DNA from: a phage
Sequence record: PZ445454.1
Reading direction: 5' to 3' (one strand)
DNA: 64,000 nt
The position numbers were made by a program, and so were the translations under genes. Shown piece after piece: positions 6,826-62,065 of the stretch (position 1 is its first letter; each line of letters opens with the position of its first letter). The notes under the pieces are model-generated. The model ran no database searches. It was not told where the DNA came from and saw nothing but the letters and a program-made list of their open reading frames with translations.

Positions 6826-7275
6826 ATGTGTTATACAGGCGACCCAGCCAATAACCCTCTTGATAGAGTAAGAATCCTCTGCACAGACACCAATAATGAT
6901 GAAATTCTTATTGAGCAGTCTGTGCTAGAGTGGTTCTATCTAGAATCTGGAAAGGATGAAAAGAAAGCAGCCATCAAAGCTCTTAAATATTTACTCTTTC
7001 AAGTAGCCAAGATGGGAGATGAGAAGGTTGGTGGTGTTTATTTGCGTAACTCTTCCAGATTCAAATCTCTGAAAGCTGTTTATGACGACCTTGTTAAAAG
7101 CTCTGTTTCAGGACTACCCTATGCAGGTGGTATTAATCAGTGCGACATTGATATGCGTCGTCAGAATCCTTGCTCTGTCAAGAAATACACAGAATATGGT
7201 GATGCTGCCAGATACGAAGGCAGAGATTACTGCAACCGTGTTAATGGCGTATTTATTATCGAGCGAGATGAATAA
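6826..7275 (+). CDS. hypothetical head-tail joining protein
   Basis: 149-aa ORF with RBS AAGGAGGG; position after capsid gene. Confidence 0.4.
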   Translation: MCYTGDPANNPLDRVRILCTDTNNDEILIEQSVLEWFYLESGKDEKKAAIKALKYLLFQVAKMGDEKVGGVYLRNSSRFKSLKAVYDDLVKSSVSGLPYAGGINQCDIDMRRQNPCSVKKYTEYGDAARYEGRDYCNRVNGVFIIERDE

Positions 7276-7757
7276 TGGTTAAAAGGGTTATTCACCCCGC
7301 TAGAGCAAAATTAGTCGGGGCTATGAAGAACTTGCAAACGGCTAATGCTCAAGTTGGGTATTTTCAAGAACAAGGTCAACATAGCTCTGGTTTTTCTTAT
7401 CCTGCTTTAATGTATTTACAAGAAGTTATTGGGGTTCCTTCAGCTTCTGGTAAAGTATATCGTAGGTTGTTTGAAATCACTATGATGCTAAACAAACAGG
7501 CCTTGTTAGAGCAGACTAAGAAGAATCTATATAAGCAACTTAGCAGTCTCAACACAGACCCTTCAAATACCTTAGAAGCGTTTGCAAAGAATGCTCAAAA
7601 GGTAATTAAAAGAGGTTTTGGTAATTCTGCTATCCTCCCTCCTAACGCACCTTCCACAGTCAAGAAAAAAGGCTTTAACGCACCTCTTGTTGAGACAGGT
7701 GACTTAAGAGATAACCTTGCTTATAAAATTTCTACTAAGAAGGGTATTAAGAAATGA
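7275..7757 (+). CDS. hypothetical head-tail joining protein
   Basis: 160-aa ORF, translationally coupled. Confidence 0.4.
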   Translation: MVKRVIHPARAKLVGAMKNLQTANAQVGYFQEQGQHSSGFSYPALMYLQEVIGVPSASGKVYRRLFEITMMLNKQALLEQTKKNLYKQLSSLNTDPSNTLEAFAKNAQKVIKRGFGNSAILPPNAPSTVKKKGFNAPLVETGDLRDNLAYKISTKKGIKK

Positions 7758-22905: not shown

Positions 22906-23103
22906 ATGCCTACAATCCTAGCAATTCTTCTAAAAAATCTAGGTAGCTTCTTCTGGAAACTCATTTTATCCCTTCTAAGTGAATACATGATTGAGAAAGT
23001 GTTCTTTAGGCTTGCAAGATATCTTGCGAGTAAAACAGACACACCTATTGATGATGAGTTCGTAGATAACTTAGAAAAAGCTTTTAAGGGGGAGAATAAA
23101 TGA
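22906..23103 (+). CDS. small hydrophobic protein (membrane; holin or fiber-associated candidate)
   Basis: 65 aa; hydrophobic N-terminus ILAILLKNLGSFFWKLILSLL. Confidence 0.4.
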   Translation: MPTILAILLKNLGSFFWKLILSLLSEYMIEKVFFRLARYLASKTDTPIDDEFVDNLEKAFKGENK

Positions 23104-23471
23104 AGTGGCTAGAGGAAGCTTTTAAAAATAATATTGGTGCAATTGTAGTTGGTATTTTTAGTGTTATTGGGATGTATACCACCATGCAAGTCTCGGATGG
23201 TAAGCAAGAAGTGTCTATCACAACAAAGTTACAGCAGTTAGATAATTATTCCAAAAGTAATTATTCAGCTATTCGTGATTTACAGTCTGATATGAGGCTG
23301 CTTCAGCTAGGGATGGAGAACCAGAAAGTCCAGTTAGAGAATGTTAAGGGTGAGAACGCAAAACTTACTAAGACTCTTGATAAATTCTCTGATAGTGTGA
23401 ACAATCTGGCTCAATCAGTATCAGCCCTCCAAGCTATTACTGAAAAGAACACAAAGAATACTGAAAAGTAA
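23100..23471 (+). CDS. membrane-anchored coiled-coil protein
   Basis: 123 aa; N-terminal TM IGAIVVGIFSVIGMY then heptad-like QLDN...LQLGMENQ region. Confidence 0.4.
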   Translation: MKWLEEAFKNNIGAIVVGIFSVIGMYTTMQVSDGKQEVSITTKLQQLDNYSKSNYSAIRDLQSDMRLLQLGMENQKVQLENVKGENAKLTKTLDKFSDSVNNLAQSVSALQAITEKNTKNTEK

Positions 23472-25740: not shown

Positions 25741-26100
25741 TTATGGGAACAAGCACTTAATGTCATCGTTTTTGAAAACAAAACTTGTGTAGTTATGACC
25801 ATCAACATCCAGCCAAACAGCCTGAACATCCACACCATCAAGATTTTGGTAAAGCTCTTTGATGAAGTGGTCTTTTACAATCTGACTGCTAGTTGTTTCC
25901 AACTTAATGTTCGAGATTGCTGAACCTACAGCCATATAGCCCATGACACGTTTCTTCTCAGTATGCTTAATCTTACCATCTTTGTAAGCCATAATGAGAT
26001 TGGAAAGAATCTTTACACCATAATACTTTTCAAGGTGAGTAGGTACACCATAAAAGCCTAATGCGAAGTTTTCAGAGTGGATAATGTTTTCACGTTTCAT
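25741..26100 (-). CDS. hypothetical protein
   Basis: 119-aa ORF. Confidence 0.45.
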   Translation of the reverse strand: MKRENIIHSENFALGFYGVPTHLEKYYGVKILSNLIMAYKDGKIKHTEKKRVMGYMAVGSAISNIKLETTSSQIVKDHFIKELYQNLDGVDVQAVWLDVDGHNYTSFVFKNDDIKCLFP

Positions 26101-26101
26101 A

Positions 26102-26401
26102 TTAATCTGCCAACCTTAAATTGAAATTAACACCAAATTTTTCACATACTTCCAACATATACTCAAGGGAGACGTTACCAGTGAGATGGATTATGTTGGA
26201 TACACGAGCCTGAGAGATACCACAAATTTTAGCAACTTGCTCTTGAGAAAGACCTCTTGATTTAATCTCTCTCTTAAAACGATGTGCAACAAAGTCTCTC
26301 ATTTCGTCTACATCCATTGGACAAATATAACTCTCCATTTCAGCCTCTCTATCAGCCTCCCAATCATCTTGTGGGGCATAAGGGTCAAAAACCTCATTCA
26401 T
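26102..26401 (-). CDS. helix-turn-helix DNA-binding protein (putative transcriptional regulator)
   Basis: LSQEQVAKICGISQARVSNI HTH motif; start chosen at internal ATG (MNEVFD) with RBS GGAAGAAGAAAG; track ORF extends to 26431. Confidence 0.5.
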   Translation of the reverse strand: MNEVFDPYAPQDDWEADREAEMESYICPMDVDEMRDFVAHRFKREIKSRGLSQEQVAKICGISQARVSNIIHLTGNVSLEYMLEVCEKFGVNFNLRLAD

Positions 26402-26606
26402 CTTTCTTCTTCCGTTTGCGTGAAGTATCAATCAATGAATCTATATTTGTAGCCCTAACCTTTTCACGTTCATCATTAAGATAATCATCAAGAGCCTTTT
26501 CAATCTGTGAATCATCTTGACAAATGACTGTAAAGACTGTAAAGCCGTCTGTATCATCAATTATCTTACCATAACCGCTTCTGGGATGTAACTTTTTAAG
26601 AGCCAT
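26394..26606 (-). CDS. hypothetical small protein with basic C-terminus
   Basis: 70 aa; ends RKRKKKDE. Confidence 0.4.
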   Translation of the reverse strand: MALKKLHPRSGYGKIIDDTDGFTVFTVICQDDSQIEKALDDYLNDEREKVRATNIDSLIDTSRKRKKKDE

Positions 26607-26607
26607 A

Positions 26608-26991
26608 TCAAATACCTGTGCAGCTTCTGTTTTCTAAGAAATACTCAACACCATACATAGCTTTTTGCATCAAATCTTCTTTAAACTGGATACGATGATT
26701 GAGCATAACCTGTACATCAATATCATCATGGTGTTTCTCTTTAATATTTGCAGATTGCAGGAAATACTCTGCAAGAACGCGATACTGGTAGTCAGTCACC
26801 TTATCAGTCATCTCTGTCAAAGACTCTTCAGAGATTGGTTTAAGTAACTCACCTTTAGATAGCGCAACACCTTTAACAATCTGGCAAGTGTCTTCTGGAA
26901 CACCTGATAAGTCCACATTTGGAAGTTCTGTTGCATTAACTGGTAAATTCATTGCCATAACCATTGCAGCAGCTAATAAAACCTTTTTCAT
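26608..26991 (-). CDS. predicted secreted/periplasmic protein
   Basis: 127 aa; N-terminal signal peptide MKKVLLAAAMVMAMNLPVNA. Confidence 0.5.
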   Translation of the reverse strand: MKKVLLAAAMVMAMNLPVNATELPNVDLSGVPEDTCQIVKGVALSKGELLKPISEESLTEMTDKVTDYQYRVLAEYFLQSANIKEKHHDDIDVQVMLNHRIQFKEDLMQKAMYGVEYFLENRSCTGI

Positions 26992-27110
26992 AATGACCTC
27001 AAAGTTATATTAAATTTTGTATTACATTGAGTATAAAAATAAGCTATAACACCTGACTTGTCAACAGATTTTATAGCTTATTTGGCAGATTTTTTATAAG
27101 GCTACTGCCA

Positions 27111-27204
27111 TCCTTCCATACCTTACCTTACCACACCTAACCATACCTAACCATACCTAACCATACCTAACCATACCTAACCAAACTACACCATACAATA
27201 CCTT
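27111..27204. repeat. tandem 10-bp repeat array (CCATACCTAA, 4 perfect copies plus about 5 degenerate)
   Basis: read directly: tccttccata ccttacctta ccacacctaa (ccatacctaa)x4 ccaaactaca ccatacaata. Confidence 0.85.
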
Positions 27205-27270
27205 GTTAAAAGACCCTCTTAAAAGACCTTTTAAAAAGGTAAGTCTCATTTTAATGTAGTTGAGACTAAC

Positions 27271-27330
27271 TACCCATACCAAACAGCACCGCACTATGCC
27301 TTACCCCACCTCACCGAGCCTCGCCCCACA
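27271..27330. repeat. C/A-rich low-G tract (plus strand) in otherwise AT-rich genome
   Basis: tacccataccaaacagcaccgcactatgccttaccccacctcaccgagcctcgccccaca. Confidence 0.6.
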
Positions 27331-27410
27331 TCACTTAAAAACCCTTTTCAAAGACTCTTAAGTGATGCTGGTGAGTACCCGTTGGTTTATGCTGCTCAGT
27401 ATACTCACCA
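27329..27410. promoter_or_regulatory. pair of inverted repeats (10-bp catcacttaa/ttaagtgatg; 9-bp tggtgagta/tactcacca)
   Basis: read directly; arms separated by about 19 and 24 nt. Confidence 0.6.
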
Positions 27411-27431
27411 AATTTTCTATGTCAACAACTT

Positions 27432-27578
27432 TTATATAAAAGTCCTGATAGCTATATGTGTTACAAAACAGAAGATTGTGAACAAGACACCCATTGCAAA
27501 GGATGTGTTCAAAAGTTTACTTGTTATGTAAGACAACACAAAGATAACTAATGCAAATAGTATGATTATGCTTAGCAT
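27432..27578 (-). CDS. possible 48-aa hydrophobic peptide downstream of ligase
   Basis: ATG 3 nt after ligase stop; translation MLSIIILFALVIFVLSYITSKLL...; no clear RBS, below ORF-track size cutoff. Confidence 0.25.
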   Translation of the reverse strand: MLSIIILFALVIFVLSYITSKLLNTSFAMGVLFTIFCFVTHIAIRTFI

Positions 27579-27581
27579 AGT

Positions 27582-28685
27582 TTACTCATAATCCCTAATA
27601 ACTAGTCCGACAGGGAACTGTAAAGAACCCTTACGAGTCATCTTCTGGAACTGAACCGTTAAAGGCTTCCCGATAAACTCATCAGGATGCTCAGCAAGAT
27701 ACTGTTTCTTCTCATGAGTAGTCTTCCATGAGACATCTACAAAGACGTTAGGAAGAGTCTCTACAACGAACTTACCATGACCACGTTTATCGGTCTTTAC
27801 ACCAGTCACTTTAAACTCTTCAGTGTGCATCTTCTTGTGCTTAATCAAGAAGTATGAACGGTGACCACACTCATAGAAGGAGTCTTCAGAGATTGAACGG
27901 TACATTGCACCTTCAAACTTGGCTTCAACCCACTTATCATGAGCTTCATCAAACTCTTCCCAAGAATTTACACGACGAGATTTAACAGGGACAACTTTAC
28001 AGCCATCTCTAAAGTCATTCAATGGTGAAGTCTCAATAATATCTCTACGCTCAGGCCACGTTTTAGTACTGTCACAGATATCATACCAGTAGAACTTAAG
28101 TAAGTGTCTGTCAGGATTGTCTTCATTTTTAATCATGGAGACAATATCTTCTAAGTCCCACCCATGAGCATAAATCTCTCCATCAAATTCATCAACATCT
28201 TTGTGGAGCCTTAACATTGCCATAATGTCAGGTATTAGTTCAGTAGGGATTTTGTAAACAGTATTCTCACGAGAATATGCTGTAAATACACTGCCAATAC
28301 TTAAGTGTCTTGAAATTCTACAACGTACACCATCAAGTTTTGGTTGAGCATCAGCAGGGAACTTCAGATACTTTGCATGACTAACCTTTGCAGCGTCATG
28401 AGCAAGCTGTACACCTACCTTTTCAGTATTCTGTGCAGACTCTTTTGTGTAAGCATAACCTTTACGGTCAACTTGCTTTTTATACTTAGCAGCAACTTCA
28501 AAGAGAGCTTGCTGTTCAGCGTTACGCTCATTCTTTTTACCGATGTTTTTCGGTTCTGCTGTATACTCTTCAAACATCATCTTGCCATTTTCTTTACCGT
28601 AGGTTGTAATAACTTTGTCACCTACAGCAACGCATGACCAGACGTTAAAAGAGCCATCTTTATTTTGTTTGTACAGAATTGTCAT
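27582..28685 (-). CDS. lig: ATP-dependent DNA ligase
   Basis: adenylation motif I KLDGVRC (KxDG); start chosen at MTILYK with RBS AGAGGT; track ORF extends to 28721. Confidence 0.7.
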   Translation of the reverse strand: MTILYKQNKDGSFNVWSCVAVGDKVITTYGKENGKMMFEEYTAEPKNIGKKNERNAEQQALFEVAAKYKKQVDRKGYAYTKESAQNTEKVGVQLAHDAAKVSHAKYLKFPADAQPKLDGVRCRISRHLSIGSVFTAYSRENTVYKIPTELIPDIMAMLRLHKDVDEFDGEIYAHGWDLEDIVSMIKNEDNPDRHLLKFYWYDICDSTKTWPERRDIIETSPLNDFRDGCKVVPVKSRRVNSWEEFDEAHDKWVEAKFEGAMYRSISEDSFYECGHRSYFLIKHKKMHTEEFKVTGVKTDKRGHGKFVVETLPNVFVDVSWKTTHEKKQYLAEHPDEFIGKPLTVQFQKMTRKGSLQFPVGLVIRDYE

Positions 28686-28878
28686 TTTTAACCTCTGAGT
28701 GATACCAAGTGTAACAAGCATTACATGCGTAAAGCTCTAAGTCATTTTTATCTGGTTTATGGAAACAGTTTGACCCACAACGACACCGGAATAGTTTACC
28801 ATCAACACGAAGAATGAATGTTTCAAGCTCACCATCTTCTGTAAGAACTGCGTTCTTAAGTTTATCTTCTACAGTCAT
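28660..28878 (-). CDS. small zinc-ribbon protein
   Basis: 72 aa; CRCGSNC ... CNAC. Confidence 0.45.
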   Translation of the reverse strand: MTVEDKLKNAVLTEDGELETFILRVDGKLFRCRCGSNCFHKPDKNDLELYACNACYTWYHSEVKNDNSVQTK

Positions 28879-29081
28879 TTTCTCTTACCACCAATCTCTA
28901 CGTCAATCACTTGAACATCACCAGCAACATCAAACTTATGAATGATGCTTTCCACAGTGTAAGTCCAACCCTCGATTCGAACCAACTCACCTTCTCGTGG
29001 GACGATTGGGTTACGTTGAGCTACGGTTGTAGTGGAGTGAACAACATCATAACAGTAGATATAGTTTACTAGGACTTCCAT
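28875..29081 (-). CDS. hypothetical small protein
   Basis: start set at internal Met (MEVLVNY) preceded by GAGG; track ORF extends to 29180. Confidence 0.4.
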   Translation of the reverse strand: MEVLVNYIYCYDVVHSTTTVAQRNPIVPREGELVRIEGWTYTVESIIHKFDVAGDVQVIDVEIGGKRK

Positions 29082-29091
29082 CTTGAAAACC

Positions 29092-29328
29092 TCACTCAAT
29101 AACAGTAGTGTGTGATTGACCATTTTTGCCATAGCTATAAGATGTTGTTGTTTGAGAGTTTGGGCATCTGACAACAACAATATCTCTGCTTATGGCATCA
29201 CCATGTAACTTATAGGCTCTGCAATCTTGCATCTCTGGTGGGAGGCTATAAGAAGCATTTTTGTCCTCGTAAGAGGGATTACAGCCAGATAGAAGGATAA
29301 CACTAAGCACAATTACTGCTTTCCACAT
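29092..29328 (-). CDS. predicted lipoprotein
   Basis: signal peptide with lipobox LLSGC; start at MWKAVIV. Confidence 0.5.
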   Translation of the reverse strand: MWKAVIVLSVILLSGCNPSYEDKNASYSLPPEMQDCRAYKLHGDAISRDIVVVRCPNSQTTTSYSYGKNGQSHTTVIE

Positions 29329-29341
29329 AATACTTCTCCTA

Positions 29342-29497
29342 TTACTGTTCACGATGTTCTACTTCTCTGTACGTTCGTCGATAGTTTATAATAAGCTGTG
29401 CTAACTCGTTGCTTTTAACACCTGAACGTAGAAGTTGCCAATCAAAACCTTTACCGACTCTTCCATACAAACTAAAGAATTTTACTTTGCGTTTCAT
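29342..29497 (-). CDS. possible small basic protein (51 aa)
   Basis: ATG preceded by GGAGATACCAAA; MKRKVKFFSLYGRVGKGFDWQLLRSG...; below ORF-track cutoff. Confidence 0.3.
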   Translation of the reverse strand: MKRKVKFFSLYGRVGKGFDWQLLRSGVKSNELAQLIINYRRTYREVEHREQ

Positions 29498-29514
29498 TTT
29501 GGTATCTCCAATAC

Positions 29515-29742
29515 TCAGATGTCAATGCTAATACGTTCACCCTTAAGGACTCCTGTACGGTCCCTTGCAATCTTACCGTCAACAATAAGGATATGTGCAG
29601 ACCTTAAAGATTCGCCATTAAAAGCTTTTACGAACTTACAAGGCATTACCACAATAGACATCTCCTGAATCAACTCTGGAGTATAGCAATTGTCGTGAAG
29701 TTGCTGAATAACGTCTGCAAGTGTCATTTTTGATGTCTCCAA
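29515..29742 (-). CDS. hypothetical protein
   Basis: 75-aa ORF in co-directional array. Confidence 0.4.
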   Translation of the reverse strand: METSKMTLADVIQQLHDNCYTPELIQEMSIVVMPCKFVKAFNGESLRSAHILIVDGKIARDRTGVLKGERISIDI

Positions 29743-29933
29743 TACTCAATATCAATAAGTTCTTGTGCAATACTTTTCAGATTACCTTTCAAGAAAACCT
29801 TCTCAGAACCTGAAAGAGATGAATTGTCAATTAGCCTGTTCATTCTCTCAAACAACTTCTGCTTACGGTTCTTGATAGTTTCCTTTGAAGCACCTTTCAT
29901 CATCGCTGCATGGGTTCTTCCACGGTGGCTCAT
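29724..29933 (-). CDS. hypothetical small basic protein
   Basis: 69-aa ORF. Confidence 0.4.
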   Translation of the reverse strand: MSHRGRTHAAMMKGASKETIKNRKQKLFERMNRLIDNSSLSGSEKVFLKGNLKSIAQELIDIEYWRHQK

Positions 29934-29984
29934 AAGCCCTCCTATACAAGATATAGTATAAGGTACTCTTCCCTGAGCACCTTG

Positions 29985-30512
29985 TCAACTTAGTTTTGCA
30001 AACTCTCCGTGGAGTTTAATAGCAGCTTCACAGTAAGCTTTATGGGCTTCTTCAGGTGTGTCATAGTAGCCTAATGACATCTTTTTACCTTTATAGCTTA
30101 TTTGCGCAAGCCACCTACCAGACTTCTTCTTCAGGCTTACACCCTTATAGCCTGATTTATTGGTAGATAGTTTGCTTTTATTCCAAGCACTTTGGCAGTC
30201 ATCTGCTTCTCTTAAGTTTACAACCCTGTTATCAAGGGAGTCCCCATTAATATGGTCGATAACACCTCTCGGTAGCCTACCATACACGTACAGCCATGCG
30301 AGTCTGTGTGCTTTATGTGCTTTCTTGTCAAAATAGATAGTAATCTGCTTATGACCAGTTGAGTCAATCTGGATGCTCCCCGCTACCTGTCCTGCGTACT
30401 TACTATTAAAGACTTTAACAGCCCTTGAGTCACCCTCTCTACGAAGCCAAGTAAAGACCCCTGTTTCGGGGTCATAGTGTAGTAGCTCCTTTAAACGTTC
30501 TTGTGTAATCAT
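29985..30512 (-). CDS. HNH homing endonuclease with AP2-type DNA-binding domain (freestanding)
   Basis: HNH region HRLAWLYVYGRLPRGVIDHINGDSLDNRVVNLREA; AP2-like YKGVSLKKKSGRWLAQISYKGKKMSLGYYDTPEEAHKAY; start at MITQER overlapping DNA polymerase stop. Confidence 0.65.
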   Translation of the reverse strand: MITQERLKELLHYDPETGVFTWLRREGDSRAVKVFNSKYAGQVAGSIQIDSTGHKQITIYFDKKAHKAHRLAWLYVYGRLPRGVIDHINGDSLDNRVVNLREADDCQSAWNKSKLSTNKSGYKGVSLKKKSGRWLAQISYKGKKMSLGYYDTPEEAHKAYCEAAIKLHGEFAKLS

Positions 30513-56157: not shown

Positions 56158-58524
56158 ATGCGCATGGTAAATGACCACGCAGAAGTGATTAAGAGTTCAA
56201 CTTCTTTGGAGACATCTCAAGCTCAGATTACAATGACACCTGAAATGTTCAGTCTTCTGAGTTCTGGTGTATATACCTTTAAAGAGAGGGCAGTGATTCG
56301 TGAACTGTCATGTAATGCAGTAGATGCTCAGAAAGAAGCTGGAAAAGAGAATATCCCGTTCCATGTGCATTTACCTACTCGTTTTGAGCCTTACTTTGAA
56401 GTCCGTGATTTTGGAACTGGATTGACTCATGATAAAGTTATGAGTTTGTATCTGAACTACGGGGCTTCTACGAAGAATGACTCTAATGATTACATTGGCG
56501 CAATGGGTATCGGCTCAAAATCCCCATTTGCAATTGCTCAGTCATTCACAGTATCTAGTTATGTTGATGGTGTTGTTAATAAGTACTCTGTTTACCTTGA
56601 GAATGGTATCCCTCAAGTAACTAAGCTTACTACTAACCCAACAAATGAACCCAATGGTTTAGCTGTACGTGTAGCAGTTGCTGACCACCGTATTTCAAAG
56701 TTCTTTGAAGAGGCTGGTCACGTATATTCATACTTTGCTGTAAAACCAGAAAGCAATATTGTATATGATGATGTGTTAGCAGATATGAACGTCATTGCCC
56801 GTGAAGAGGGTGTTTATGATGCTATGATTCATAAGCAAAGTTGGCGTTCTAGTGGTAACAGGACAGAGTTTAATGTGGTGATGGGTAACATTGCCTACCC
56901 TGTTAACATGGAAGCATTACTTGGTGATGATTTCTTCAAAGTCTTGCCAGAGTTTTTCCGTAGGAGTGTAGACCTTGTAAACATCTACATGCCTATTGGT
57001 TCAGTTGCTATAGCAGCTTCTCGTGAAGCATTGCAGATGAATGATACGACAAAAAATGTTATCATTGAGGCTACTAAAAAGATAACTGAAGCAATTACAA
57101 AGGATGTTATCAAGAAAGTTAATAGTCAACCTACACTCATGGATGCTGCACAGGCTTATGCTGAGTTACGTTTGAACTCACGAGAGATGTTTAATGCTGT
57201 GTGTCCGAAGCTGGAGTGGGGTGGCGTTAAGCTTGATTCTCTGGAAGAAGAATTACTAAACATTCGTCGTGGGATTATCTACGCAGAAGACGGCTCAGTC
57301 ATTTATGAACGTGACGGCAAAGGTAATATTAAGGTTGACAGTAAAGGAAACAACATTCCTAAAGTGGACTACCTATACAATCCAGTTGCTTATGTCAAGT
57401 TCAACTCTTTAGAGAGTAAGATTCGTGCAACAGCACTTTCCTACACTCAAGAGGCAAGTATGTTCAATATCTTTGGTGCAATGCGTAAAAGCCAAATTGA
57501 ACAGTTTTTGTTCGTGATTAATGACCGTCGCAATAAAAACGGAACTGAGAAGACTGTAGGACGCAATCAAATCTTGCGTGGTGCATGTCGAGACTACGCC
57601 AATGAGTCAAGTCTGTTTCACAGATACAATGGTATTGTGTTTGTTTTCTCGACTGAAAAAGAGCTAGATGACTTAATCAACCTACACAAACTTGATAAAA
57701 GCTTGTTAAAGATTGTGAAGATGTCTGATAAGGAACATCACTATCAGCGTAAAGAAGCTGTGAGGGGTGTTGTAAAACTCTGGAAAGCTGTTCCAGCAGA
57801 AGGTGTAGCTTCCTATAAAGAGGTTTCAGAGGACTTTGATACAATTGAAGAACCTCAGCTTTACATTAAGGCAGTTGGTGACACAGTTGATGGCGAATGT
57901 TTTTGCTCATCTCCAGAAGATGTAGCTAAGTCAGTCGCTAATGTTATAGGGAAGACAGTCTATGTTTTCCGAAAAGCAAATTGGAAAAAGATACCAGAAG
58001 ACTGGATTGAAGTAGATGAGAAACTATTGAATGACAGCCTAACTGATGTTCACTGGATTAATCATAACAGGTATATGACACGTATCTATATGAATGGTGT
58101 CCTTGACCTTACAAGTAGTTGGATTATTGCCAGAAACTTTACGTTTAATAACAAGAAGATTTCTCGCGGGTATTGCTATTCACGAGATACATACAAAACC
58201 ATCTTCTTAGAAGGTAATGAGAATGCTGTTGAGGCAATGTTTGGTAAGATTCAGTATGTGGCTGCACCGTTTGCATACACTTACACTATCAGTGTTCTTC
58301 AGGATTTGAAGTCATGCCTTGACAATGATACAAAACTGTACAAAAAGATTAAGAAAGCGGGTGACCGCATGGTTATCAAACTGACAAACTACCTTTCAAA
58401 AAGAAAACAAGAAAACTTCTTGCTTTCCCATTTAGATTGGAATAAAGTGTCACCCATCGAAGTGAGTAAGTTCTTAGGCTTTGATGTGAAGTGTGTTCCA
58501 GAAGGGACTACAATTTACGATTAA
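56158..58524 (+). CDS. rIIA: rIIA-like protein (GHKL/HATPase_c N-terminal domain)
   Basis: Bergerat-fold boxes: N box RELSCNAVDA, G1 box VRDFGTGL, G2 box GAMGIGSKSPF; 788 aa; followed by rIIB-like gene. Confidence 0.65.
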   Translation: MRMVNDHAEVIKSSTSLETSQAQITMTPEMFSLLSSGVYTFKERAVIRELSCNAVDAQKEAGKENIPFHVHLPTRFEPYFEVRDFGTGLTHDKVMSLYLNYGASTKNDSNDYIGAMGIGSKSPFAIAQSFTVSSYVDGVVNKYSVYLENGIPQVTKLTTNPTNEPNGLAVRVAVADHRISKFFEEAGHVYSYFAVKPESNIVYDDVLADMNVIAREEGVYDAMIHKQSWRSSGNRTEFNVVMGNIAYPVNMEALLGDDFFKVLPEFFRRSVDLVNIYMPIGSVAIAASREALQMNDTTKNVIIEATKKITEAITKDVIKKVNSQPTLMDAAQAYAELRLNSREMFNAVCPKLEWGGVKLDSLEEELLNIRRGIIYAEDGSVIYERDGKGNIKVDSKGNNIPKVDYLYNPVAYVKFNSLESKIRATALSYTQEASMFNIFGAMRKSQIEQFLFVINDRRNKNGTEKTVGRNQILRGACRDYANESSLFHRYNGIVFVFSTEKELDDLINLHKLDKSLLKIVKMSDKEHHYQRKEAVRGVVKLWKAVPAEGVASYKEVSEDFDTIEEPQLYIKAVGDTVDGECFCSSPEDVAKSVANVIGKTVYVFRKANWKKIPEDWIEVDEKLLNDSLTDVHWINHNRYMTRIYMNGVLDLTSSWIIARNFTFNNKKISRGYCYSRDTYKTIFLEGNENAVEAMFGKIQYVAAPFAYTYTISVLQDLKSCLDNDTKLYKKIKKAGDRMVIKLTNYLSKRKQENFLLSHLDWNKVSPIEVSKFLGFDVKCVPEGTTIYD

Positions 58525-58603: not shown

Positions 58604-59710
58604 ATGACTACTAAAACTAAAGCACAGATTGACGCAGAAATTTACGAACTGGTTAAAGAAGGTAAGCTGACTAAAACAGCTATTGCACAGAAGTTCAATA
58701 CTTCAACCCGTTCAGTTGGTCGTGCTGTAGAGCGTCATGAAGCAACCTTAAAAGGTAAGAAAAAGGTAGCTTCTAAACCAGCTACGAAGACTTTGAAGCA
58801 AGTTGCTAAATCAGTTAAAAAGAAAGCTGACAAGCCAGTTAAAAAGGCTGTTAAAGAGCCTGTACAGAAAGCTCCGGTAAATAAACTGCATGAAGCTATG
58901 CAGAATGGTAACCAGATTGAGTATATGATTACTGGCGATTCTGTTATCATGACTTTCGGTGCAGATTCTGAAATCGTTGAATCTACCCATCCGAACTACA
59001 AAGAAATTGTGATGGCTGTTGTATCCGGTGAGTATAAGAAAGCTTTCGAACTGATGAACATTCGTAAGTCTATCGAAAACTTCACTCAGGGTGCTATCAC
59101 CATCAAAGGTGATAAGCTATTCTATGGTGCTGTTGAGATGCGTTCTACTCTGGTTGACCGTATTCTTCACATGATGAAGACTGGTGATAAAGGTTTTGAA
59201 CGACTTGTAATGTTCTTCGAAAAACTGATGGAAAACCCATCTAAAGGTTCTGTAGAACAACTGTGGGGATTCATATCTCACCTTGATGTTGAAATTGATG
59301 AAGAAGGCTACATTATCGGTTGGAAAAAGGTACAAAGTAAAGCTGACGGTTCTCTGGTAGACAGCCACACCCATAAAGTACCTAATGACTTAGGTAACCT
59401 AGTTGAGATGCCTCGTTGGATGGTTGATAGTGACCCTAACCGCACTTGCTCTCAGGGTTTACATGTTGGTGCATGGGAATACGTATCATGTTTTGGAGGT
59501 GATACCATCCTGAAAGTTCGTGTCCACCCACGAGATGTTGTATCTGTTCCGATTGATTACAACGATATGAAGATGCGTGTATCAGCTTATGAGTCTTTTG
59601 CGATTGTTGACAGCAACCGTAAAGTTATCAAGACTCACTCTGGCTCTGGTGGTCATCGTGTAGTAATTGGTTCTCACGGCGAGTTAATCTCCAAGACACC
59701 ACGCGTTTAA
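58604..59710 (+). CDS. rIIB: rIIB-like protein
   Basis: 368 aa immediately after rIIA-like gene; strong RBS AGAGAG; C-terminal KVRVHPRDVVSVPIDYNDMKMR segment. Confidence 0.55.
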   Translation: MTTKTKAQIDAEIYELVKEGKLTKTAIAQKFNTSTRSVGRAVERHEATLKGKKKVASKPATKTLKQVAKSVKKKADKPVKKAVKEPVQKAPVNKLHEAMQNGNQIEYMITGDSVIMTFGADSEIVESTHPNYKEIVMAVVSGEYKKAFELMNIRKSIENFTQGAITIKGDKLFYGAVEMRSTLVDRILHMMKTGDKGFERLVMFFEKLMENPSKGSVEQLWGFISHLDVEIDEEGYIIGWKKVQSKADGSLVDSHTHKVPNDLGNLVEMPRWMVDSDPNRTCSQGLHVGAWEYVSCFGGDTILKVRVHPRDVVSVPIDYNDMKMRVSAYESFAIVDSNRKVIKTHSGSGGHRVVIGSHGELISKTPRV

Positions 59711-59805: not shown

Positions 59806-60354
59806 ATGAAGAAGTTGATTCTAGGTTTGTGCTTAATGTTTACAGCACACTTATCTTATGCAGTTGACTGCCCAGAGCTATCAATTAGCCAAAAAGTAAA
59901 CATGTTAAAAGCTTACCAGTATGGTGAGAATAACATGGGTAAAGGTTGGGGTATCACTCTAGCTGCTATAGCCTTACAAGAGTCAGAGTTAGGTCTGAAG
60001 GTAGAGAATAAAAAGACACATGATTATGGTATTTTCCAGAATCACTTGAAGACTGTTGTAAAGCGTAACAAAATCAGTCCTAATGTGGCTAAAAAGAAAC
60101 TCTTAAGAGACTTTGATTATGCTGCGAAGGAAACTCACAAAGAGCTTGAGTTTTGGACAAAGGTGCATGGTCAGCCAAAGTCAAAGAAGACTTTACAAAA
60201 AGTTTTAGCATCATATAATGCTGGGTATTCGTACAGAATCCCTAAAGCTAAGAAATATTCTCAAGATGTCTATAACAACATGAAAGTCATCGCTCAATGT
60301 GAATTTGCAACAAACATTTCTAAGGTAAACCATGAAAAAATTAAGAAAGTCTGA
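59806..60354 (+). CDS. secreted lytic transglycosylase (SLT domain; endolysin candidate)
   Basis: signal peptide MKKLILGLCLMFTAHLSYA; SLT-like AIALQESELG and DYGIFQ, YNAG. Confidence 0.55.
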   Translation: MKKLILGLCLMFTAHLSYAVDCPELSISQKVNMLKAYQYGENNMGKGWGITLAAIALQESELGLKVENKKTHDYGIFQNHLKTVVKRNKISPNVAKKKLLRDFDYAAKETHKELEFWTKVHGQPKSKKTLQKVLASYNAGYSYRIPKAKKYSQDVYNNMKVIAQCEFATNISKVNHEKIKKV

Positions 60355-61554: not shown

Positions 61555-61902
61555 ATGACATTTAAAGAGTTCTGTCAAGCTACTTTCATAATTGTTTTCT
61601 TAGTTGGGGCAGGTGTCTGGGGAGGATACTCTTACAGAGACTATCAAGTTGCTGAAGCTGAGCTAAATAATGAGAAACTAATAAGTGTGGCTAAAGATGC
61701 TTATCAGGAAGGTTTAGCCACACTCAGCACCAATTACAAAAATGATTTGAAAGATGTGCTTGCTAAGAATAAGCATACAAAAGAGGTACTAACATATGAA
61801 AAAACTAAGCCAGAGTTTTATAATGTTTGTGTTACTGATAATTATGTCAGGGTGTTCAACGAACAAAGTGAACAGTACATTCAAAAACTCCCAAGTAAGT
61901 GA
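61555..61902 (+). CDS. i-spanin (Rz-like) candidate
   Basis: N-terminal TM ATFIIVFLVGAGVWGGY then periplasmic helical domain; contains start of overlapping lipoprotein ORF in another frame. Confidence 0.5.
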   Translation: MTFKEFCQATFIIVFLVGAGVWGGYSYRDYQVAEAELNNEKLISVAKDAYQEGLATLSTNYKNDLKDVLAKNKHTKEVLTYEKTKPEFYNVCVTDNYVRVFNEQSEQYIQKLPSK

Positions 61903-62065
61903 GAGTGACAAGTACACTCAAGAAGAATCAAGATTCACTGTCAAAGGCAACACTGGTAGTGATGTGGCAGCAGCCCTTGAGTTTTATCGTGATGGTTTTT
62001 ACCAGTGCACAATCAAAGCTAATAACCTTATTGATATGATTTTATTAGGGAACAAACAGCAATGA
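61796..62065 (+). CDS. o-spanin (Rz1-like) outer-membrane lipoprotein candidate
   Basis: lipobox LLIIMSGC; ORF starts inside Rz-like gene in a different frame and extends beyond it. Confidence 0.5.
   Translation: MKKLSQSFIMFVLLIIMSGCSTNKVNSTFKNSQVSESDKYTQEESRFTVKGNTGSDVAAALEFYRDGFYQCTIKANNLIDMILLGNKQQ

What the first reader, a model, noticed from the sequence alone, without database searches (positions are those of the whole stretch)
26608..29328. Secreted and lipoprotein-type small proteins in the leftward early block
Seen in sequence: ORF 26608..26991 has a classical Sec signal peptide (MKKVLLAAAMVMAMNLPVNA) and ORF 29092..29328 has a lipobox (LLSGC). They lie among early/DNA-metabolism genes (ligase, polymerase), not in the lysis or virion modules. 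Inference: envelope-targeted early proteins are candidates for superinfection exclusion or receptor masking.
Basis: partly seen in the sequence, partly recalled or inferred. Interest (0 to 1): 0.4.

Follow-up and report, generated by a model that had tools for sequence, protein, structure and literature searches.

The report
Two exported small phage proteins
A Felix O1-type phage carries two conserved small genes, one for a protein predicted to be secreted into the periplasm and one for a predicted membrane-anchored lipoprotein; both signals look real, but their proposed role in blocking a second infection is untested and rests only on analogy.

Summary
The window is a Felixounavirus genome, about 93% identical in DNA to phage tootiki. 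Both ORFs exist as described. ORF 26608..26991 (-) has a Sec signal peptide with the three standard regions and a predicted cut after residue 20 (VNA|T). ORF 29092..29328 (-) has a lipobox, LLSG|C. No signal-peptide predictor was available, so export rests on rule-based checks and conservation.

- **Secreted protein:** orthologues in three Ounavirinae genera differ in signal-peptide sequence but keep its form, the Ala-x-Ala site and two invariant cysteines.
- **Lipoprotein:** it belongs to a large family (682 hits; tagged DUF4884, phrog_902). The lipid cysteine and two more cysteines are invariant across 99 aligned members.
- **Selection and expression:** both are under purifying selection. 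Neither Felix O1 orthologue is among its identified virion proteins. The real spanin pair lies at 61.5-62 kb.
- **Secreted protein structure:** a confident three-helix bundle (pLDDT 95), found only in Ounavirinae, with its own conserved sigma-70 promoter.
- **Known families:** neither protein is homologous to T5 Llp/Cor or T4 Spackle.

Superinfection exclusion remains a reasonable analogy. Receptor masking of the Llp type is disfavoured. This is a sound but ordinary lead.

The parts
26608..26991 (-). Gene for the 127-aa secreted protein (phrog_4332; Felix O1 gp87 orthologue). It is a precursor with a Sec signal peptide. The mature part is 107 aa, with pI 4.7.
   Evidence: ORF and ribosome-binding site. 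phrog_4332 at E 9e-66. Found only in Ounavirinae. pN/pS 0.04-0.14. AF2 model with pLDDT 95.2 showing three helices. pI.
26932..26991 (-). Signal peptide, residues 1-20: MKK, then VLLAAAMVMAM, then NLPVNA. Cleavage is predicted after Ala20.
   Evidence: Rule-based scan. The form is conserved although the sequence diverges, and Ala20 is invariant among the four orthologues aligned (the deeper alignment is).
27036..27064 (-). Sigma-70-type promoter (TTGACA, 17 nt, TATTTT) about 45 nt upstream of the secreted-protein gene. A 19-nt inverted repeat (27037-27055 and 27065-27083) brackets the -35 element.
   Evidence: Promoter scan, 10 of 12 positions. The hexamers are kept in five Felixounaviruses (a single spacer change in tootiki) and the stretch is identical in Moogle. 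Inverted repeat.
27398..27425 (-). Near-consensus sigma-70 promoter (TTGACA, 16 nt, TATACT) reading leftward toward the secreted-protein gene.
   Evidence: 11 of 12 positions. All 28 bases are identical in four Felixounaviruses and in Moogle.
27432..27578 (-).
   Evidence: phrog_22006 at E 1e-30. The 48-aa ORF is intact with conservative changes in four relatives, while the opposite-strand ORF varies from 31 to 75 aa. pN/pS 0.07-0.19.
29092..29328 (-). Gene for the 78-aa prolipoprotein (phrog_902; homologues tagged Pfam DUF4884; Felix O1 gp91 orthologue). The mature part is 63 aa starting Cys-Asn-Pro, with two further invariant cysteines.
   Evidence: ORF and ribosome-binding site. phrog_902 at E 2.5e-17. 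682 family hits. Invariant C1, C21, C40 and P41 of the mature protein. pN/pS 0.06-0.29.
29281..29328 (-). Lipoprotein signal peptide and lipobox: MWK, AVIVLSVIL, then L-S-G-C. Cys16 is the predicted acylation site.
   Evidence: Passes the PROSITE-style rule. A lipobox is found in 110 of 121 hits, the rest being fragments, miscalled starts or variant boxes.

Best explanation
**What is shown in silico.** The leftward replication-gene block of this Felixounavirus carries two independent accessory genes whose products leave the cytoplasm. Their Felix O1 orthologues are not among that phage's identified virion proteins.

1. **Secreted protein (127 aa).** SecYEG exports it and signal peptidase I cuts it after Ala20. 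This releases an acidic 107-residue three-helix bundle into the periplasm. A disulfide between the two invariant cysteines probably pins the C-terminal tail to helix 1.
2. **Lipoprotein (78 aa).** It is acylated on Cys16 and cut by signal peptidase II. Residue +2 is Asn, so the Lol pathway should send it to the inner leaflet of the outer membrane. The conserved domain is about 60 residues, beta-rich and disulfide-bonded, and it begins only about 10 residues from the lipid anchor.

**When they are made.** Both are produced well before lysis, from the transcription unit that also holds the polymerase and ligase genes. The secreted protein has its own host-type promoters.

**Inferred function.** Both alter the envelope of the infected cell from the periplasmic side, so that later-arriving phages fail at tail penetration or DNA entry.
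- The secreted protein would act like T4 Spackle, as a soluble periplasmic binder of a lineage-specific partner. This fits its very fast divergence between genera.
- The lipoprotein would act on a conserved envelope component rather than on a particular receptor.

**Status of the steps.** Export and processing are strongly supported. Timing is supported for the secreted protein only. The exclusion function is inference by analogy.
For: **Export signals.** They pass rule-based checks and are rare in the window. Their form is kept while the sequence diverges, with an invariant Ala-x-Ala site, an invariant lipid cysteine and paired extra cysteines typical of periplasmic proteins.

**Real genes.** Both are under purifying selection. 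Both are syntenic in Felixounavirus, Mooglevirus and Suspvirus.

**Not structural.** Neither gp87 nor gp91 is among the Felix O1 virion proteins (PMC3185647).

**Not the spanin.** An overlapping pair with the Rz/Rz1 layout sits at 61555..62065. Its i-spanin candidate matches phrog_1152 at E 9e-42; the overlapping lipoprotein matches a spanin family only weakly (phrog_456, E 8e-5).

**Expression.**
- Conserved sigma-70 promoters lie directly upstream of the secreted-protein gene in all three genera.
- gp87 transcript was detected, peaking at 25 min together with ligase and polymerase.

**Structure.** The secreted protein gives a confident model (pLDDT 95.2, pTM 0.85) with three long helices.

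**Analogy with known factors.**
- T4 Spackle is an early, periplasmic, 75-residue helical bundle with one disulfide that blocks the tail lysozyme of incoming phage (PMC7677548).
- T5 Llp is a 62-residue mature lipoprotein with two further cysteines, and it blocks FhuA.

**Divergence pattern.** The secreted protein is the fastest-diverging gene of the block between genera, at 33-35% identity. The holin is 90-93% and the ligase 87-89%. That is the pattern expected for a binder of a lineage-specific partner.

**Lipoprotein distribution.**
- The family is essentially phage-borne. A strict-motif scan of 185,579 bacterial species genomes confirmed one copy.
- It stands alone, with no conserved neighbour in about 20 lineages, and is tandemly duplicated in one jumbo-phage contig.
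- In an Acinetobacter phage it lies three genes from an Imm-like 'immunity to superinfection' gene.
Against: - There is no experimental evidence for any exclusion phenotype in Ounavirinae. Literature searches found none.
- Neither protein is homologous to Llp/Cor, Spackle or Imm, or to any PADLOC family.
- Fold searches returned only generic helical bundles for the secreted protein. They returned nothing for the lipoprotein, whose model has low confidence (pLDDT 66.8).
- The RT-PCR peak at 25 min is 'middle', not immediate-early. The lipoprotein transcript was never tested.
- The analogy argument has a small reference set. T4 RI shows that periplasmic phage proteins can have other roles.
- SignalP and LipoP were not available.
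Confidence: 0.4

Rival explanations
1. The proteins manipulate the host envelope or counter a host defence, and are not aimed at other phages. For example, they could inhibit a host periplasmic protease, lytic transglycosylase, envelope-stress sensor or vesiculation pathway, keeping the infected cell intact and productive until programmed lysis.
For: - The lipoprotein domain is highly conserved (motif VVRCPNSxTTT) across phages of Enterobacteriaceae, Vibrio, Acinetobacter, Aeromonas, Pseudomonas and Erwinia, and across myovirus, siphovirus and jumbo forms. This points to a conserved host target.
- The residue after the lipid cysteine varies: E 21, N 19, D 19, T 19, S 17 of 110. Some enterobacterial-phage members (Klebsiella, Erwinia, Yersinia) have Asp, which predicts inner-membrane retention. 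The target is therefore probably reachable from either membrane, meaning it is periplasmic.
- The genes are co-expressed with replication genes.
Against: - The 33% inter-genus identity of the secreted protein fits poorly with a conserved host target.
- There is no direct evidence either way.
Confidence: 0.25
2. The proteins control lysis timing. The secreted helical protein would be an RI-like periplasmic antiholin, or a regulator of the secreted SLT-like enzyme or the spanins. The lipoprotein would modulate the spanin or outer-membrane step.
For: - The protein annotated as holin in relatives (23100..23471) has one N-terminal hydrophobic segment, which leaves a roughly 95-residue domain that could be periplasmic and bound by a periplasmic protein.
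- Felix O1 encodes rIIA.
- A Sec-exported protein with a weak SLT domain lies at 59806..60354.
- The secreted-protein gene is only 3.1 kb from the holin gene.
Against: - The holin is 90-93% identical between genera, whereas the secreted protein is 33-35%. There is no co-evolution.
- No match to an antiholin or lysis family. The only 'spanin' hit (phrog_6073, E 0.003) covers just the lipoprotein signal peptide.
- The genes lie in a different transcription unit from the holin and spanins. There is no adjacent i-spanin and no C-terminal membrane segment.
- The lipoprotein family occurs in phages with unrelated lysis systems.
Confidence: 0.12
3. The lipoprotein masks a receptor in the way T5 Llp and Cor do. 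It would bind and inactivate the phage's own outer-membrane receptor, preventing readsorption to infected cells and debris.
For: - The build is the same as T5 Llp: a lipobox, a mature domain of about 62 residues and two further cysteines.
- It is made before lysis.
- Asn at +2 predicts outer-membrane sorting.
Against: - There is no homology once the signal peptide is removed. hhalign gives probability 2% over 7 columns, and 5 of 100 shuffles score as high. The 73.6% probability obtained with full-length sequences was driven by the signal peptide.
- It does not match phrog_1119, the Cor/Llp family, although T5 Llp itself matches at E 1e-19.
- The gene is not next to a tail-fibre or receptor-binding gene, unlike llp beside oad.
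- The Felixounavirus receptor is LPS (PMC8300805), which a periplasm-facing lipoprotein cannot cover.
- The family is shared by phages with different receptors.
Confidence: 0.07
4. The N-terminal hydrophobic stretches are chance features or membrane anchors, and the proteins are not exported or processed as proposed.
For: No dedicated predictor and no experiment were available. The heuristic also flagged a few probable non-genes.
Against: - The hydrophobic cores are only 11-12 residues long, too short to span a membrane.
- The cleavage motifs and lipid cysteine are invariant over deep divergence.
- The paired cysteines are conserved.
- LPAM_1 (the lipid-attachment-site model) scores above its threshold on one family member, at 27.9 bits.
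Confidence: 0.03

Closest known systems
T5 Llp (Cor/Llp superinfection-exclusion lipoproteins, phrog_1119)
   Same: A small prolipoprotein of a virulent phage, made before lysis. The mature domain is about 62 residues with two further cysteines.
   Different: The mature domains show no detectable homology. The gene is not beside the receptor-binding-protein gene. The phage uses LPS, not FhuA. The family spans many phage lineages with different receptors.
T4 Spackle (Sp)
   Same: Spackle is an early, Sec-exported, soluble periplasmic protein: a compact acidic helical bundle with one disulfide (PMC7677548). The window's protein is a predicted three-helix bundle with an invariant cysteine pair and pI 4.7.
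Pfam DUF4884 (PF16225) / PHROG phrog_902
   Same: The lipoprotein matches phrog_902 at E 2.5e-17. All of its homologues carry the precomputed PF16225:DUF4884 tag.
   Different: The family has no known function. The local Pfam scan did not reproduce the PF16225 hit for the window protein or for ten relatives.
Rz1-type o-spanins
   Same: A small outer-membrane lipoprotein encoded by a phage.
   Different: There is no partner i-spanin gene nearby. The gene is not in a lysis cassette. The phage's spanin-like pair is at 61555..62065.
T4 RI antiholin
   Same: A small phage protein that acts in the periplasm and is made before lysis.
   Different: No match to any lysis or antiholin family in Pfam or PHROGs. 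RI uses a signal-anchor-release domain rather than a cleaved signal peptide (from memory). The Ounavirinae holin is nearly invariant while this protein diverges to 33%.

Membership tests
T5 Llp / Cor lipoproteins (phrog_1119) | N-terminal lipoprotein signal peptide with a lipobox cysteine | tested here: met
   LLSG|C passes the PROSITE-style rule. The lipid cysteine is invariant in the family.
T5 Llp / Cor lipoproteins (phrog_1119) | Sequence homology of the mature domain to Llp/Cor | tested here: not met
   No phrog_1119 hit at E <= 0.01, although T5 Llp matches it at E 1e-19. Mature-only hhalign gives probability 2%, and 5 of 100 shuffles reach the score. The full-length 73.6% was a signal-peptide artefact. 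Only one Llp sequence served as template.
T5 Llp / Cor lipoproteins (phrog_1119) | Gene placed beside the receptor-binding-protein gene | tested here: not met
   Here the gene lies between the HNH/polymerase genes and the ligase gene. In T5, llp abuts oad with divergent promoters.
T5 Llp / Cor lipoproteins (phrog_1119) | Binds and inactivates the phage's outer-membrane receptor | not testable with these tools
   This needs adsorption and binding assays. The reported receptor is LPS (PMC8300805).
T4 Spackle | Cleavable Sec signal and periplasmic location | tested here: met
   In silico only: n, h and c regions with VNA|T, conserved in form across orthologues at 31-35% identity.
T4 Spackle | Sequence or fold homology to Spackle | tested here: not met
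T4 Spackle | Inhibits the tail lysozyme of incoming phage | not testable with these tools
   No assay was possible, and no tail lysozyme was identified here.
Two-component spanin (o-spanin) | Partner i-spanin gene adjacent, overlapping or embedding | tested here: not met
   The flanking genes (51 aa and 68 aa) have no membrane segment. The spanin-like pair is at 61555..61902 and 61796..62065.
Pfam DUF4884 (PF16225) / phrog_902 | Significant match to the family profile | tested here: inconclusive
   phrog_902 at E 2.5e-17. PF16225 is precomputed for all homologues and named DUF4884. The local Pfam-A hmmscan gave no PF16225 hit.
T4 RI antiholin | Homology to RI, or co-evolution with the holin's periplasmic domain | tested here: not met
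   No Pfam or PHROG lysis-family match. Between genera the holin is 90-93% identical and this protein 33-35%.

The most novel reading that the evidence does not exclude
The DUF4884 lipoprotein could be a phage factor that is independent of lineage and receptor. Tethered at the periplasmic face, it would disable a conserved Gram-negative envelope component needed for tail penetration or DNA entry. That would make it a generic exclusion or envelope-locking device shared by virulent myoviruses, T5-like siphoviruses and jumbo phages of many Gammaproteobacteria. In the same phage, the Ounavirinae-only helical protein would be an independently evolved, Spackle-like specific inhibitor.
Probability: 0.2. 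Interest if true: 0.6.

Novelty: new member of a known kind. Interest (0 to 1): 0.3.

Why it matters
**Applied relevance.** Felix O1-type phages are widely used for Salmonella typing and biocontrol. Many of their replication-block genes still have no assigned function.

**What this work provides.** It identifies three envelope-directed products in that block: a periplasmic helical protein, a DUF4884 lipoprotein and a 48-aa membrane hairpin. Each can be tested directly with plasmid-expression challenge assays.

**The wider lead.** The lipoprotein family matters most. It has hundreds of members across unrelated virulent phages and almost none in bacterial genomes. A function found for one member would annotate many phages at once.

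**Relevance to cocktails.** If these proteins exclude other phages, they could affect how phages behave when combined in cocktails.

Tried and rejected
**Profile and database searches that gave nothing useful**
- Pfam, NCBIfam and PADLOC scans of both proteins found nothing informative.
- The PF16225 tag on the homologues could not be reproduced with the local Pfam copy.
- Profile searches of all PDB sequences found nothing.
- An Rfam scan of 26000-30000 found nothing above noise.
- Literature searches found no functional work on these genes.

**Structure searches**

**Readings considered and rejected**
- *o-spanin:* rejected because the spanin-like pair lies elsewhere.
- *Homology to T5 Llp:* the first hhalign run gave 73.6% probability, but this came from the signal peptide and vanished for mature sequences.
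- *Conserved partner gene for the lipoprotein:* none found in about 20 lineages. An apparent excess of membrane proteins next to it was no higher than the local background, as judged by my own tally of the listing with a crude gene caller.
- *RI-like antiholin:* weakened by the near-invariant holin.

**Technical failure**
- The first genome scan, with the 99-sequence alignment, failed for lack of a conserved stretch. It worked with a 10-sequence alignment.


Full report
**Identity of the window**

The region 26000-30000 matches 259 phage records. Nearly all are Felixounavirus (Ounavirinae). The best matches are Escherichia phage tootiki and Shigella phage JK55, at about 93.5% identity. GC skew and the ORF map show a leftward (minus-strand) block from about 33.3 kb to 23.5 kb. 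In order of transcription it holds:
- DNA polymerase
- an HNH endonuclease
- small ORFs, among them the lipoprotein gene
- ATP-dependent ligase
- a 48-aa ORF
- an intergenic region
- the secreted-protein gene
- a 70-aa ORF
- an HTH regulator
- more small ORFs
- dihydrofolate reductase and thymidylate synthase

The annotation of relatives agrees with these assignments.

**Checking the observation**

- ORF 26608..26991 (-) starts MKKVLLAAAMVMAMNLPVNA|TELP, with GAGG 5 nt before the ATG.
- ORF 29092..29328 (-) starts MWKAVIVLSVILLSG|C, with AGGAGA 6 nt before the ATG. The mechanical ORF extends to a GTG at 29352, which would only lengthen the positively charged N-terminus.
- The 101-aa ORF that seems to overlap it really starts at 29081. 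That gives 68 aa, a full-length match to phrog_4427.

No signal-peptide predictor was available, so I applied explicit rules to all 203 ATG-started ORFs of at least 40 aa in six frames. Two pass a PROSITE-style lipobox rule: this ORF and the o-spanin candidate at 61796..62065. A loose signal-peptide heuristic flagged nine ORFs. By inspection, 26608..26991 and 59806..60354 are the clearest classical Sec signals. Both hydrophobic cores are 11-12 residues long, too short to span a membrane.

**Conservation as the main evidence for export**

*Secreted protein.* It occurs only in Ounavirinae.
- tblastn finds 258 phage records. Most are 90-100% identical, and 43 are below 60%; those listed at 30-36% identity are from Mooglevirus and Suspvirus.
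- A full HMMER pass over 1.84 billion representative proteins found only five clusters.
- The distant orthologues have different signal-peptide sequences, for example MKKLLVGIIALGMSFSAVA|M. They keep the MKK start, the hydrophobic core and Ala-x-Ala. Cys36 and Cys124 are invariant.

*Lipoprotein.* It belongs to a much larger family.
- tblastn finds 539 phage records, including Vibrio T5-like phages (Demerecviridae). It also finds an Acinetobacter Obolenskvirus, a Klebsiella Justusliebigvirus, a 352-kb Escherichia phage and a Pseudomonas phage.
- A profile search found 682 proteins, among them proteins of Erwinia, Yersinia and Aeromonas phages.
- In 99 aligned members the lipid cysteine, two further cysteines and a proline are invariant. 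The motif VVRCPNSxTTT is nearly so.
- The distance from the lipid cysteine to the CPNS cysteine is fixed at 36-43 residues.

Paired cysteines are typical of proteins that fold in the oxidising periplasm. pN/pS against five to six relatives is 0.04-0.14 for the secreted protein and 0.06-0.29 for the lipoprotein. Both are therefore real genes under purifying selection, and the export signals are real features.

**Expression**

The Felix O1 genome paper describes a leftward transcription unit, genes 96 to 80 (PMC3185647). Its supplement lets me map gp87 (57248-57631, 127 aa, pI 4.8) to the secreted protein. It maps gp91 (59421-59678, 85 aa) to the lipoprotein.
- gp87 was positive by RT-PCR, with maximal signal at 25 min. 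The paper calls this class 'middle'. Ligase gp88, gp89, gp90, gp93 and polymerase gp96 share it.
- gp91 was not tested.
- Neither protein is among the virion proteins identified by mass spectrometry.

The secreted-protein gene has two strong host-type promoters upstream.
- *27425-27398* is TTGACA, 16 nt, TATACT (11 of 12 positions). All 28 bases are identical in four Felixounaviruses and in Moogle.
- *27064-27036* is TTGACA, 17 nt, TATTTT. Its hexamers are kept in five Felixounaviruses, and the stretch is identical in Moogle, even though the protein is only 33% identical there. The Suspvirus CHB7 has a different consensus promoter at the same place.

So 'early' is approximately right for this gene. 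'Before lysis, together with the replication genes' is the safer wording for both.

**Structure**

The mature secreted protein gives a confident AlphaFold2 model (pLDDT 95.2, pTM 0.85). It has three long helices at residues 11-25, 35-67 and 73-101. The invariant cysteines sit in helix 1 and just after helix 3, which suggests a disulfide that locks the C-terminal tail. I could not measure this in the model.
- Foldseek against viral models returns only the Sf13 orthologue.

**Comparison with known systems**

- *Spanins.* The phage's pair is at 61555..61902 and 61796..62065. It has the overlapping Rz/Rz1 layout. The i-spanin candidate matches phrog_1152 at E 9e-42; the lipoprotein matches a spanin family only weakly. 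The lipoprotein studied here has no adjacent i-spanin and no C-terminal membrane segment.
- *T5 Llp.* It has the same build: a lipobox, 62 mature residues and two more cysteines. A full-length profile comparison gave 73.6% probability. With signal peptides removed this fell to 2% over 7 columns, and 5 of 100 shuffles scored as high. The window protein does not match phrog_1119, which T5 Llp matches at E 1e-19. In T5, llp abuts the receptor-binding-protein gene. Here the gene sits among replication genes, and Felixounaviruses use LPS as receptor (PMC8300805).
- *T4 Spackle.* It is an early periplasmic 75-residue helical bundle with one disulfide that inhibits the gp5 tail lysozyme (PMC7677548). 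The secreted protein resembles it in kind. It shares no detectable sequence or specific fold relationship.
- *Defence families.* There are no PADLOC hits.

**Clues to mechanism**

1. *Divergence of the secreted protein.* Between genera it is the fastest-diverging gene of the block, at 33-35% identity. Compare holin 90-93%, ligase 87-89%, thymidylate synthase 79-81% and the lipoprotein 69-74%. This argues against a binder of the near-invariant holin. It fits a binder of a lineage-specific partner.
2. *Lipoprotein distribution.* The family occurs in phages with different hosts, receptors and morphotypes. It has no conserved neighbouring gene in about 20 lineages and is tandemly duplicated in one jumbo-phage contig. 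A strict-motif scan of 185,579 bacterial species genomes confirmed only one copy, in Hylemonella gracilis. It therefore acts alone and is essentially phage-borne. It probably addresses something conserved in Gram-negative envelopes.
3. *Membrane sorting.* The residue after the lipid cysteine varies: E 21, N 19, D 19, T 19, S 17 of 110. By the established Lol rule that Asp at +2 retains a lipoprotein in the inner membrane of Enterobacteriaceae (my own knowledge), the Felixounavirus protein (Asn) should go to the outer membrane. The Klebsiella, Erwinia and Yersinia phage members (Asp) should stay in the inner membrane. This suggests a periplasmic target rather than a surface receptor.

**Verdict**

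- Export is well supported in silico.
- Expression before lysis is supported for one gene.
- Superinfection exclusion is a reasonable hypothesis that rests only on analogy.
- Receptor masking of the Llp type is disfavoured.

I put about 0.4 on an exclusion role acting from the periplasm. I put 0.25 on host-envelope manipulation unrelated to other phages, and 0.12 on lysis-timing control. Llp-type masking gets 0.07 and non-export 0.03.

These are conserved hypothetical genes of a well-sequenced phage genus. One belongs to a catalogued family of unknown function (tagged DUF4884). The finding is a sound but ordinary lead, and its most useful product is a short list of directly testable candidates.

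Noticed in passing
window 27432..27578 (-): A 48-aa ORF with two hydrophobic segments (phrog_22006) sits just after the ligase stop codon. It is intact with conservative changes in four Felixounaviruses, while the opposite-strand ORF varies in length. It is absent from Felix O1 and Moogle. The VSe11 record annotates the opposite strand instead.
   Followed up: partly
window 27037-27083 (-): A 19-nt inverted repeat (89% complementary, 9 nt apart) brackets the -35 hexamer of the promoter of the secreted-protein gene. The whole stretch of about 75 nt is near-identical between Felixounavirus and Moogle, although the downstream protein is only 33% identical. It may be an operator; an HTH regulator gene (26102..26401) lies two genes downstream.
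   Followed up: partly
window 27120-27196: A tandem repeat of a 10-bp unit, 7.7 copies (ACCATACCTA on the plus strand), lies in the intergenic region between the two promoters. tootiki annotates repeat regions in this intergenic area. The period is close to one helical turn.
   Followed up: no
window 26992-27431 versus L001 4237-5267: This phage lacks two genes (phrog_4652, 195 aa; phrog_5926, 146 aa; both look cytoplasmic). Tootiki, VSe11, Alf5 and Moogle carry them between the ligase and the secreted-protein gene; Felix O1 and UAB_Phi87 lack them too. The site is an indel hotspot.
   Followed up: partly
window 59806..60354 (+): A 182-aa protein has a classical Sec signal peptide (MKKLILGLCLMFTAHLSYA|VD) and a weak lytic transglycosylase (SLT) domain match (PF01464, E 1.2e-3; phrog_600). 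It may be a secreted muralytic enzyme. It lies 1.2 kb upstream of the spanin-like genes.
   Followed up: partly
window 61555..61902 and 61796..62065 (+): An overlapping pair with the Rz/Rz1 layout. The first has an N-terminal membrane segment and matches phrog_1152 at E 9e-42. The second is a lipoprotein (IIMSG|C) that matches a spanin family only weakly (phrog_456, E 8e-5).
   Followed up: partly
L014 3983-4261 (Hylemonella gracilis ATCC 19624 contig): This is the only bacterial-genome copy of the lipoprotein family confirmed by a strict-motif scan. It lies beside an HTH_3 regulator, a Mg-chelatase/ChlI-family ATPase gene and a protein with an ABC-3C CTD10 domain, which suggests a mobile or conflict island.
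   Followed up: partly
L041 (IMG/VR contig of 192,737 bp), focal gene and the next gene downstream: Two DUF4884-type lipoprotein genes lie in tandem (98 and 108 aa), so the family has duplicated within one large phage genome.
   Followed up: no
GenBank GU169904.1 and MG065664.1: Records named 'Staphylococcus phage SA1' and 'Campylobacter phage A132' contain sequence about 96% identical to this Felixounavirus region. They are probably mixed or mislabelled records.
   Followed up: no
L001 (tootiki) 7127-7429: The tootiki record annotates the over-extended 303-nt ORF and omits the lipoprotein gene. Annotation of this small gene is inconsistent across Felixounavirus records.
   Followed up: no
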